DNA of 64,000 nucleotides from an uncultured Bacilli bacterium (GTDB taxonomy: Bacteria; Bacillota_I; Bacilli_A; RF39; UBA660): positions 1,238 through 65,237 of the forward strand of contig CAKORJ010000001.1 of the NCBI GenBank assembly GCA_934101575.1, in the 5' to 3' direction. Positions 18,239 to 19,756 of the stretch are shown piece by piece. Position 1 is the first letter of the stretch, and each line of letters begins with the position of its first letter. The notes beneath the pieces are model-generated. The model was given only the letters and a program-made list of their open reading frames with translations, was not told the DNA's origin and ran no database searches. Position numbers and translations under genes: made by a program.

Positions 18239-19756
18239 TTATTTTTTTGTAACTTGTTTTATATTTATTACATATGGTGCTTCTTTGTTTTCTGTGTTAT
18301 GAAATTCTTCATATGTATAATTTGTTAATGTTTTTAGATATTTTTTTATTTCTTTACTTTCTTTTAGTCCTTCTTTATGACCTGGATATATTGTTATTAC
18401 TATATGTCCTTTTTTATTTAACATATTTAGACTTTGTTTTATGGCTTTTATTGTTGTACTTGTTTTGGTTGTTATTTCTTTACTTTCTTTTGGTAAGAAC
18501 CCTAGATTGAATACAATTAATGATATTTTTTGTTTGTATTCTTTTAGTTTTTGTTCTATGTTTTCGTGACCTGTTTGATATAATTTATAATTTTTATATT
18601 TAGTTTTTAATAAATTATTTGTATTTATTATTGCTTGTTTTTGAATATCAAATCCAAATAGAAATCCTTTTGTTATTATATGTAATAAATAGTTTGAATC
18701 TTTTCCATTTCCTATGGTGGCATCTATTACTAAGTCATTTGGTTTTAGGTTTGTTTCCATTAATGTTCTTGCTTTATTTAAAATGCTTAGGTTATATCCT
18801 TGATATGTGTTTCTTTGTTTTAATGTTTTGTCTATATCATTTAGAATAGTAAATTTTTTTGTTGTCCAGGTTGGTTCTATTAGTTCATTTTTATCTGGAT
18901 CTCCGGTTAATCTATTTATTATTATTTCTTCATTTAGGTTTTCTATTTGATCACATACTATGTTTATATATTCTTCTTTTGTTAGAATATGAAAGTTTTC
19001 TTTGTTATATAGTTTTTCTAATTGTGTGTCTTTTAAGATATGTAACATGTGTATTTTTATTCCATCTATGTGAAGTTTATTTAAATATTTTACTGTTTCT
19101 AACATCATTTCTTTTGTTTCGTATGGTAACCCATTTATTATGTGTACTACTACTTTGATTTTTGCTTTTTTTAGTTTTTTGTACATTGTTTCGAATTCTT
19201 CTAGAGTATGACCTCTATTTATTAATTTAGATGTTTTATCGTGTATTGTTTGGAGTCCTAGTTCTATTACTAAATCTGTTTTTTTGTTTAATTCTTTTAA
19301 GTATTCTAGACAATCTTCTGATATGGCATCTGGTCTTGTTGCTATGTTTATTCCTATTACATTTTTATATGTTAGGACTTCTTCAAATGCTTTTTTTAGA
19401 TAATTTAACTCTCCATATGTATTTGTATTTGTGCCAAAGTAGGCTATGTATTTTGCATTTTTCCATTTTTTATGTAGTATTTGTTTTTGATTTTCAAATT
19501 GTTCTTTTAGTGATTGGTTTTTGTTTCCTCCGAATGATGATCCACCGGATTTACAGTATATGCATCCGCCTGTTCCTTTGGTTCCATCTTTGTTTGGACA
19601 TGATAAACCTAGATTTAAGTTTACTTTAAAGACTTTTGAGTTATATTTTATTTTATAATAATAATCTAGTGTATGATATCTTTTATTGTTATATGAGTAT
19701 TTAAACATGTAATCACTTCCATTTGTTATTATATAAAATTTTTTTATTAATCTCAA
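18239..19756 (-). CDS. Fused MnmL (YtqA, TIGR01212 radical SAM) – MnmM (YtqB methyltransferase) protein
   Basis: The N-terminal ~310 aa carry a C-x11-C-x2-C cluster ([16 protein letters not shown]) typical of TIGR01212/ELP3-like radical SAM proteins. The C-terminal ~190 aa align with recalled B. subtilis YtqB: [18 protein letters not shown] vs [25 protein letters not shown]…[13 protein letters not shown] vs [36 protein letters not shown] vs PFIVAIEKK. Confidence 0.7.
   Translation of the reverse strand: [505 protein letters not shown]

What the first reader, a model, noticed from the sequence alone, without database searches (positions are those of the whole stretch)
18239..19756. Single-polypeptide fusion of MnmL (YtqA radical SAM) and MnmM (YtqB methyltransferase)
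In Bacillus subtilis, ytqA (TIGR01212 radical SAM) and ytqB (SAM-dependent methyltransferase, now assigned to the MnmC-independent mnm5s2U tRNA pathway as MnmM) are adjacent but separate genes. Here one 505-aa ORF carries the radical-SAM half (C-x11-C-x2-C) at its N-terminus. Its C-terminus is a methyltransferase half that aligns block-by-block with YtqB. A natural fusion supports a functional coupling of the two enzymes.
Basis: partly seen in the sequence, partly recalled or inferred. Interest (0 to 1): 0.6.

Follow-up and report, generated by a model that had tools for sequence, protein, structure and literature searches.

The report
Known fused MnmL–MnmM tRNA-modification enzyme
The gene is a real, conserved single-protein fusion of the two enzymes (MnmL and MnmM) that finish the mnm5s2U wobble modification of tRNA in Gram-positive bacteria, but this fusion type was already published in 2023 from the same group of uncultured gut bacteria, so it is a correct but ordinary finding.

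Summary
One ORF on the minus strand encodes a TIGR01212 MnmL/YtqA radical-SAM half (348.7 bits, cut-off 180), followed with no linker by an MnmM/YtqB methyltransferase half (171.4 bits, cut-off 135). The 505-aa ORF is only the mechanical maximum. The real CDS is most likely 18239-19708 (489 aa), because the "TTG start" coincides with the -35 box of the best promoter-like site.

It is not an assembly artefact. The identical protein occurs on 54+ contigs from independent assemblies. All 120 listed relatives (59-92% identity) carry both domain sets, and 119 of them are 476-499 aa.

The Cys triad and four essential MnmM residues are invariant in the fused homologs, and three others vary conservatively. 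AlphaFold predicts one compact body (pLDDT 89.6, pTM 0.87).

The fusion class is already published: nine YtqA-YtqB fusions from gut MAGs are listed in Data S4a of bioRxiv 10.1101/2023.12.21.572861, where fusions were used to discover MnmL.

New here, and modest: the fusion probably arose once, from an overlapping mnmL-mnmM pair. MnmL-only and MnmM-only loci are interleaved among its relatives.

The parts
18239..19708 (-). Most likely CDS of the fused mnmL-mnmM gene (489 aa plus stop at 18239-18241)
   Evidence: ORF. The homologs are 476-499 aa and align from this Met. The exact 489-aa product is called in 54+ public contigs.
19709..19756 (-). 5' extension of the mechanical 505-aa ORF, probably untranslated promoter/leader. 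It holds -35 TTGAGA (19756-19751), -10 TATAAT (19733-19728) and the RBS-like GGAAGTGA (19720-19713).
   Evidence: Best promoter-like match in the region, 11 of 12, although such sites are not enriched over shuffles. Sequence read.
18785..19708 (-). MnmL/YtqA radical-SAM half (residues 1-308 of the 489-aa protein)
   Evidence: TIGR01212 348.7 bits against cut-off 180, model 1-300/302. PF04055 + PF16199. Elp3-like radical-SAM fold.
19553..19600 (-). Radical-SAM [4Fe-4S] motif [16 protein letters not shown] (C37-x11-C49-x2-C52)
   Evidence: Sequence. All three Cys are invariant in the 120-sequence alignment of fused proteins, window included.
18773..18805 (-). Fusion junction [11 protein letters not shown] (residues 302-312). 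The MnmL C-terminal YQG motif runs directly into MnmM helix 1, with no linker.
   Evidence: The HMM envelopes abut. The junction columns are gap-free and highly conserved in the 120-sequence alignment. Model pLDDT is about 92-94 across it. Stand-alone MnmL genes stop 0-12 codons after this point.
18242..18784 (-). MnmM/YtqB class I SAM-dependent methyltransferase half (residues 309-489)
   Evidence: NF053511 171.4 bits against cut-off 135. PF06962 1e-36. phmmer to PDB 8H1A/8H0S, E 1e-32 and 4e-28. Foldseek TM 0.89-0.90, rmsd 1.5-1.7 A.
18698..18724 (-). SAM-binding motif [10 protein letters not shown] (residues 329-337). D337 is equivalent to the essential D34 of B. subtilis MnmM.
   Evidence: Alignment to 8H0S/8H1A. 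D337 is invariant in 120 of 120.
18497..18499 (-). F404 codon, in the FNLGFLP motif, at the position of the U34-stacking Tyr104 of B. subtilis MnmM
   Evidence: Mapping: 110 of 120 fused sequences have Y, and 10 (including the window) have F. In B. subtilis MnmM, Y104F keeps about one third of activity and Y104A has none (PMC9976899).

Best explanation
The gene encodes a genuine bifunctional tRNA wobble-uridine modification enzyme, MnmL-MnmM, of an uncultured low-GC gut Bacilli bacterium. The N-terminal radical-SAM half (MnmL/YtqA) would bind a [4Fe-4S] cluster through C37/C49/C52 and use SAM-derived radical chemistry to remove the carboxymethyl group of cmnm5s2U34, giving nm5s2U34 without O2. 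The C-terminal class I methyltransferase half (MnmM/YtqB) would then methylate nm5s2U34 with a second SAM to give mnm5s2U34 in tRNAs such as Glu, Gln and Lys. The two consecutive steps on the same nucleotide are joined in one rigid polypeptide, making it the Gram-positive, oxygen-independent counterpart of the MnmC1-MnmC2 fusion of E. coli. What is shown here: the domain identities, intact catalytic motifs, conservation, reproducibility of the ORF and a compact predicted fold. What is inferred from homology: both enzymatic activities. The fusion most likely arose once, by a small indel in the overlap of an mnmL stop with an mnmM start. The gene sits alone behind its own promoter-like site, flanked by genes on the other strand.
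For: Both halves score above the curated equivalog cut-offs with full-length model coverage, and the Pfam domains agree. The Cys triad is invariant. The MnmM residues D34, N101, Y141 and H144 (essential in B. subtilis MnmM; PMC9976899) are invariant in the 120-sequence alignment of fused proteins. K11 is R or K, Y104 is Y or F, and K110 is mostly K. The M half matches MnmM crystal structures by sequence and by fold, and the L half matches the Elp3 radical-SAM domain. The AF2 model has pLDDT 89.6 and pTM 0.87, with a well-ordered junction. The identical protein is on 54+ contigs, all 120 listed clusters carry both domain sets, and 18 of 43 species genomes are fused in frame. MnmL and MnmM functions were shown genetically and biochemically in B. 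subtilis, S. mutans and E. coli YhcC. Split relatives L046 and L049 have mnmL and mnmM overlapping by 20 and 8 nt, with the mnmM ATG 4 codons after the YQG motif in another frame. The M halves of fused genes are monophyletic in 181 of 200 bootstraps.
Against: No fused protein has been assayed, so both activities are inferred. The window protein has Phe at the U34-stacking Tyr104 position, and the equivalent B. subtilis mutant is about 3-fold slower. MnmM works as a homodimer, with a residue from the second protomer contacting U35, and whether the attached MnmL domain is compatible with that dimer and with tRNA binding was not tested. The upstream pathway genes mnmA, mnmE and mnmG were not found among the window ORFs tested. 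The rest of the genome is unavailable, so the presence of the substrate is assumed.
Confidence: 0.85

Rival explanations
1. The fusion is an artefact: a sequencing or assembly indel removed the stop codon between two separate genes.
For: Single-base indels do occur in relatives. L044 has a 1-nt insertion that breaks the gene, and split relatives differ from a fusion by only a small indel.
Against: The identical 489-aa product is on 54+ contigs and 58 index blocks from independent ENA, Logan and NCBI assemblies. All 120 listed clusters at 59-92% identity carry both domain sets. The junction is gap-free and conserved. The one broken copy (L044) is broken inside the MnmL half, not at the junction.
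Confidence: 0.01
2. The fusion is real but only one half is active. For example, the MnmM half may be crippled by Tyr-to-Phe at the U34-stacking site, or blocked from dimerising, so that the protein acts only as MnmL.
For: F404 replaces the Tyr104 equivalent. Many close relatives keep MnmL alone (24 of 43 genomes), which shows the MnmM half is dispensable at this locus.
Against: B. subtilis Y104F retains activity. All other essential residues and the SAM motif are intact, and the M half is conserved at 44-90% identity across the fused genome loci. This indicates purifying selection on both halves.
Confidence: 0.07
3. The halves act on other substrates than assumed: an rRNA methylase (the historical Pfam name of PF06962) coupled to a radical-SAM enzyme with different chemistry.
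For: Pfam still calls PF06962 'Putative rRNA methylase', and there are weak RsmH-like hits. TIGR01212-family proteins are also found fused to GNAT, pseudouridine synthase, Maf, NUDIX and UDG domains, which hints at functional breadth in the family.
Against: Both halves pass the equivalog models built for MnmL and MnmM. The tRNA U33/U34-contacting residues defined in the MnmM-ASL crystal structures are conserved. RsmH scores 32.8 bits against a cut-off of 154.
Confidence: 0.05

Closest known systems
Published YtqA-YtqB (MnmL-MnmM) fusion proteins (bioRxiv 10.1101/2023.12.21.572861, Fig. 3A and Data S4a)
   Same: Same domain order (radical-SAM MnmL at the N-terminus, MnmM at the C-terminus), same size range (472-497 aa against 489 aa) and the same kind of source. 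The published ones come from uncultured gut Bacillota, 'Mollicutes' and 'Clostridium sp. CAG' MAGs. The window's nearest genomes are titled uncultured Bacilli, Tenericutes or Mycoplasma MAGs.
   Different: Nothing essential. This particular sequence is not one of the nine UniProt entries listed, as far as can be told without their sequences. It has F instead of Y at the Tyr104-equivalent position.
B. subtilis MnmL (YtqA) plus MnmM (YtqB), separate co-expressed genes
   Same: Same two families and the same presumed two-step reaction. The M half is 33-38% identical, with TM about 0.89, to the solved MnmM structures.
   Different: Here there is one polypeptide with no linker. In B. subtilis and in the relatives L036, L046 and L049 there are two ORFs, adjacent or overlapping.
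E. coli MnmC (MnmC1 FAD oxidoreductase fused to MnmC2 methyltransferase)
   Same: A functional analogue: one protein joining the demodification step (cmnm5 to nm5) and the methylation step (nm5 to mnm5) on U34.
   Different: Neither domain is homologous, and no MnmC model is matched. MnmC1 needs FAD and O2, whereas MnmL is a radical-SAM enzyme that works anaerobically. The domain order is reversed: the methylase is N-terminal in MnmC.
[quoted passage not shown]
   Same: Other mix-and-match fusions of the two last steps of the pathway.
   Different: They use a different partner domain and come from different phyla (Campylobacterota, Lentisphaerota, Planctomycetota, Verrucomicrobiota).
Elp3 (Elongator catalytic subunit; radical SAM plus KAT/GNAT)
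   Same: It has the closest solved fold to the N-terminal half, and it also modifies C5 of tRNA U34.
   Different: TIGR01211 scores 68 bits against a cut-off of 350. There is no acetyltransferase domain, and the chemistry is opposite: removal rather than addition of a carboxymethyl unit.

Membership tests
MnmL/YtqA (TIGR01212 radical SAM) | Full-length match above the curated equivalog cut-off | tested here: met
   348.7 bits against 180; model positions 1-300 of 302.
MnmL/YtqA (TIGR01212 radical SAM) | Radical-SAM Cys triad for the [4Fe-4S] cluster (C-x11-C-x2-C in this family) | tested here: met
   C37, C49 and C52 are present and invariant in 120 of 120 sequences of the fused alignment.
MnmL/YtqA (TIGR01212 radical SAM) | Radical_SAM core plus Radical_SAM_C domain with an Elp3-like fold | tested here: met
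   PF04055 4.5e-21 and PF16199 2.3e-28. Foldseek hits to Elp3 chains, E 7e-13 to 1e-10.
MnmL/YtqA (TIGR01212 radical SAM) | Physical linkage with mnmM, used in the literature to separate MnmL-type members | tested here: met
   Covalently fused to MnmM. The linkage criterion is described.
MnmL/YtqA (TIGR01212 radical SAM) | Converts cmnm5s2U-tRNA to nm5s2U-tRNA using a [4Fe-4S] cluster and SAM | not testable with these tools
   Needs anaerobic biochemistry or genetics. It has been shown only for S. mutans/B. subtilis MnmL and E. coli YhcC.
MnmM/YtqB (NF053511; PF06962) | Full-length match above the curated equivalog cut-off | tested here: met
   171.4 bits against 135; model 3-181 of 183. PF06962 1e-36.
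MnmM/YtqB (NF053511; PF06962) | MnmM fold | tested here: met
   TM 0.89-0.90 and rmsd 1.5-1.7 A to 8H1B, 8H27 and 8H0S, from a model with pLDDT 89.6.
MnmM/YtqB (NF053511; PF06962) | Residues essential for activity in B. subtilis MnmM: D34, N101, K110, Y141, H144 | tested here: met
   D337, N401, K410, Y441 and H444 are identical in the window protein. Four of them are invariant in the 120-sequence alignment.
MnmM/YtqB (NF053511; PF06962) | Residues essential for activity: K11 (contacts U33) and Y104 (stacks on U34) | tested here: inconclusive
   K11 is R314 and Y104 is F404. Both changes are conservative. Y104F keeps about one third of activity in B. subtilis MnmM, whereas K11 was tested only as K11E.
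MnmM/YtqB (NF053511; PF06962) | Homodimer that methylates nm5s2U34 | not testable with these tools
   The dimer and the activity are known for the S. aureus and B. subtilis enzymes. Only a monomer model was made here.
Published MnmL-MnmM (YtqA-YtqB) fusion class | Single ORF of about 470-500 aa, MnmL N-terminal and MnmM C-terminal, from uncultured gut Bacillota/'Mollicutes'-like genomes | tested here: met
   489 aa. Domain order. The published list gives 472-497 aa. The nearest genomes are gut Bacilli, Tenericutes or Mycoplasma MAGs.
MnmC (considered as a functional analogue) | FAD-dependent oxidoreductase (MnmC1) and MnmC2 methyltransferase domains | tested here: not met
   No MnmC, DAO or MnmC2 model appears among the NCBIfam or Pfam hits. 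It works like MnmC but is not a member.
Elp3 | TIGR01211 match above cut-off and a C-terminal KAT/GNAT domain | tested here: not met
   68.3 bits against cut-off 350, and no acetyltransferase domain.

The most novel reading that the evidence does not exclude
The fusion arose once in this gut Bacilli lineage, and its MnmM half was then lost several times. If so, some close relatives (for example L018, whose MnmL is 74% identical) would carry MnmL with no MnmM anywhere. They would therefore stop at nm5s2U or use an unknown methyltransferase. Conversely, relatives such as L056 keep MnmM at the syntenic site with mnmL deleted. This would make the clade a natural experiment in remodelling the end of the xm5s2U pathway.
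Probability: 0.2. Interest if true: 0.4.

Novelty: already known. Interest (0 to 1): 0.15.

Why it matters
The fusion is good supporting evidence that MnmL and MnmM act consecutively on the same tRNA nucleotide. That argument has already been made and published, and both enzyme functions have since been shown experimentally. What remains useful falls into three parts. First, annotation: the named public records checked here call such proteins only 'TIGR01212 family radical SAM protein', missing the methylase half. Second, the fused, linker-less, confidently modelled protein is a convenient single-chain target for structural work on MnmL, which has no solved structure. Third, the mosaic of fused, split, MnmL-only and MnmM-only loci shows how easily the last steps of this pathway are rearranged.

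Tried and rejected
- **Frameshift or assembly artefact:** rejected.
- **Close stand-alone MnmM hits as evidence of natural splits:** several proteins of about 170 aa at 58-91% identity looked like this. The two I checked are not splits. P0122/L044 is the fusion broken by a 1-nt insertion inside the MnmL half. P0132/L045 is an intact fusion with a truncated gene call.
- **The 505-aa TTG start:** rejected in favour of ATG 19708.
- **Pathway partners in the window:** NCBIfam on 20 ORFs found no mnmA, mnmE, mnmG or mnmC. The neighbours are a DUF1538 membrane protein, pyrimidine-nucleoside phosphorylase, TM2 and DUF2752 membrane proteins, three paralogous membrane-anchored proteins and LeuRS. This gives no functional link.
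- **MnmM remnants downstream of MnmL-only genes (L018, L019, L023, L027):** only chance-level hits.
- **First bootstrap script:** it timed out and was rerun with a faster distance.
- **Terminator scan:** none found between the convergent stops at 18231 and 18239.

Full report
**Observation.** The window is low-GC DNA (about 22-32% GC in 2-kb windows, about 24% around the gene). It carries an uninterrupted ORF at 18239..19756 on the minus strand, 505 aa counted from a TTG.

NCBIfam splits it cleanly, in 505-aa numbering:
- TIGR01212 'tRNA modification radical SAM protein MnmL/YtqA': residues 26-323, model positions 1-300 of 302, 348.7 bits against a cut-off of 180.
- NF053511 'MnmM': residues 325-500, model positions 3-181 of 183, 171.4 bits against a cut-off of 135.

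Pfam agrees with PF04055, PF16199 and PF06962. The two HMM envelopes abut, so there is no linker.

**True gene limits.** The 505-aa ORF is only the longest possible reading.
- Homologs are 476-499 aa and align from the Met at 19708.
- The exact 489-aa product starting there is the one called in other public assemblies.
- The TTG at 19756 is the first base of the best promoter-like site in the region: TTGAGA, 17 nt, TATAAT, matching 11 of 12 positions. An RBS-like GGAAGTGA lies just before the ATG. Promoter-like sites as a class are not enriched over shuffles there, so this is supporting evidence only.

I therefore take the CDS as 18239..19708. The gene stands alone on the minus strand, between plus-strand genes. 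No terminator-like site was found.

**Not an artefact.** The identical 489-aa protein occurs on 54 or more contigs and in 58 index blocks, from independent ENA, Logan and NCBI assemblies, with the same neighbours.
- All 120 listed 90%-identity clusters related to it (59-92% identity) carry both domain sets. All but one partial 419-aa entry are 476-499 aa.
- In a 120-sequence alignment of these fused proteins (the window protein plus 119 homologs), the junction columns (…[15 protein letters not shown]…) contain no gaps and are highly conserved.
- The short, highly similar 'stand-alone MnmM' proteins I checked are not natural splits. L044 is the same gene with a 1-nt insertion inside the radical-SAM half. 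L045 is an intact in-frame fusion whose gene call was truncated.

**Are both halves likely to be active?**
- The three cluster-binding Cys are invariant in 120 of 120 sequences.
- Cho et al. (PMC9976899) identified seven residues in B. subtilis MnmM whose mutation nearly abolishes activity: K11, D34, N101, Y104, K110, Y141 and H144.
- Mapped through the phmmer alignment to PDB 8H0S and 8H1A, the window protein has R314, D337, N401, F404, K410, Y441 and H444.
- D, N, Y and H are invariant in the fused clade. K11 is R or K in 110 of 120 sequences. Y104 is Y in 110 and F in 10.
- The Phe in the window protein is a mild change, because B. subtilis Y104F keeps roughly one third of activity whereas Y104A has none.

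An AlphaFold2 model built on 52 fused sequences is confident: mean pLDDT 89.6 and pTM 0.87, with pLDDT about 92-94 across residues 291-310. This suggests a rigid two-domain body rather than beads on a string.

Foldseek places the C-terminal half on the MnmM crystal structures (TM 0.89-0.90, rmsd 1.5-1.7 A). It places the N-terminal half on the radical-SAM domain of Elp3. No MnmL structure has been solved.

**Mechanism (inferred).** Published genetics and biochemistry describe the two separate enzymes:
- MnmL (and E. coli YhcC) converts cmnm5s2U34 to nm5s2U34 by an O2-independent radical-SAM reaction.
- MnmM methylates nm5s2U34 to mnm5s2U34.

The window protein most likely does both, as the anaerobe-compatible analogue of the MnmC1-MnmC2 fusion of E. 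coli. Neither activity has been measured for any fused form. It is also untested whether the MnmM homodimer, which contributes a residue in trans to tRNA binding, is compatible with the attached MnmL domain.

No mnmA, mnmE or mnmG was found among the window ORFs tested, and the immediate neighbours are functionally unrelated.

**Comparison with what is known.** The fusion class is already in the literature.
- Its Data S4a lists nine YtqA-YtqB fusions of 472-497 aa. They come from Clostridium sp. CAG:433, CAG:594 and CAG:762, Firmicutes bacterium CAG:884, Candidatus Aphodocola, and 'Mollicutes', 'Mycoplasmatota' and 'Bacillota' bacterium MAGs.
- The window's nearest genomes are likewise uncultured gut Bacilli, Tenericutes or Mycoplasma-labelled MAGs. 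The nearest, L001 from a Hadza gut sample, is 90% identical.

The finding is therefore correct but already known.

**Survey of fused versus split forms (the modest additions made here).**
- Among 43 species-representative genomes with a relative, 18 are fused in frame, 1 (Exiguobacterium, L036) has adjacent separate genes, and 24 carry MnmL alone. The MnmL-only loci have no MnmM in the held downstream flank, which is up to 3 kb and shorter where the contig ends.
- The MnmL-only genes stop 0-12 codons after the point where the fusion continues. Four of them that I checked (L018, L019, L023, L027) have no MnmM remnant downstream.
- At 50%-identity resolution, across 1.84 billion representatives, only 6 of the best 150 relatives carry both halves. 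The fusion is therefore confined to a narrow clade, though it is abundant within it.
- More distant relatives L046 and L049 have separate mnmL and mnmM genes overlapping by 20 and 8 nt. The mnmM ATG lies 4 codons after the conserved YQG motif, in another frame, so a 1-nt indel would fuse them. This matches the linker-less junction.
- In NJ bootstraps, the M halves of all fused genes form one clade in 181 of 200 replicates, with these split forms as sister group.
- On the MnmL tree the fused genes are never monophyletic (0 of 200; 3-7 state changes). MnmL-only L018 falls inside the window's clade in 137 of 200 replicates.
- The simplest reading is one fusion followed by several losses or relocations of the MnmM half. 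These are short sequences and NJ trees only.
- Unlinked mnmM genes do exist in the wider group. L055 and L056 have mnmM next to leuS without mnmL. An mnmM elsewhere in the MnmL-only genomes therefore cannot be excluded.

**Verdict.** Novelty is 'already known', and interest is low. The remaining open point is what the MnmL-only relatives do for the methylation step. It is of specialist interest and needs whole-genome data.

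Noticed in passing
window 19846-22930 (+), ORFs 19846-20637, 20646-21782, 21896-22930: Three tandem genes for membrane-anchored proteins lie just upstream of the fusion gene. The second and third share an almost identical first ~70 residues (MEVYMEKKK[S/N]NKGLIVLVVILAILLVGSIGYICYDKFMVKNLP...) and then diverge completely. No NCBIfam match; only a weak PF04689 (S1FA) hit on the equivalents in L051-L053. This looks like a cassette-like paralog family with a conserved anchor and a variable ectodomain.
   Followed up: no
P0180, P0188, P0223, P0214, P0228, P0271, P0290: There are other fusion architectures of the MnmL/YtqA/YhcC radical-SAM family: GNAT-MnmL, MnmL-GNAT (the Elp3-like domain order), pseudouridine synthase-MnmL, Maf-MnmL, MnmL-NUDIX and UDG-superfamily-MnmL. 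P0172 is an MnmL-MnmM fusion with a ~35-aa linker, unlike the linker-less window protein.
   Followed up: partly
L055 263-805 and L056 887-1429: In these loci mnmM sits convergent with leuS, as in the split relatives L046 and L049, but no mnmL lies upstream. In L056 a minus-strand membrane-protein gene sits there instead. This suggests mnmL was deleted or moved from the syntenic site.
   Followed up: partly
L044 ~3858-3860; L043 codon 6; L042 3001-3474; L045 2664-4136: Relatives carry several defects or mis-calls. L044 has a 1-nt insertion that frameshifts the fusion. L043 has an in-frame stop at codon 6. L042 (complete chromosome CP091726.1) has an MnmL match truncated at residue 146. In L045 an intact fusion was called only as a 169-aa methyltransferase. 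These are probably assembly or gene-calling errors, though pseudogenes are possible.
   Followed up: partly
public records, e.g. P0071 (MBQ9024635.1), P0098, P0111, P0119: The fused proteins that carry an NCBI name are called only 'TIGR01212 family radical SAM protein'. The MnmM half is not reflected in the product name.
   Followed up: no
window 14388-15887 (-): A single 499-aa DUF1538 membrane protein matches the UmpA model with its first half (residues 2-223) and the UmpB model with its second half (residues 249-480). These are the two subunits of a Na,Li,K/H+ antiporter. Both matches are far below the cut-offs. It is a possible fused or duplicated two-subunit transporter.
   Followed up: no
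window 1-64000: GC skew is positive in all but one 2-kb window (G > C on the plus strand) and most long ORFs are on the plus strand. The mnmL-mnmM gene is one of the minority on the other strand. The only tRNA gene found is tRNA-Gly(GCC) at 4806-4880.
   Followed up: no
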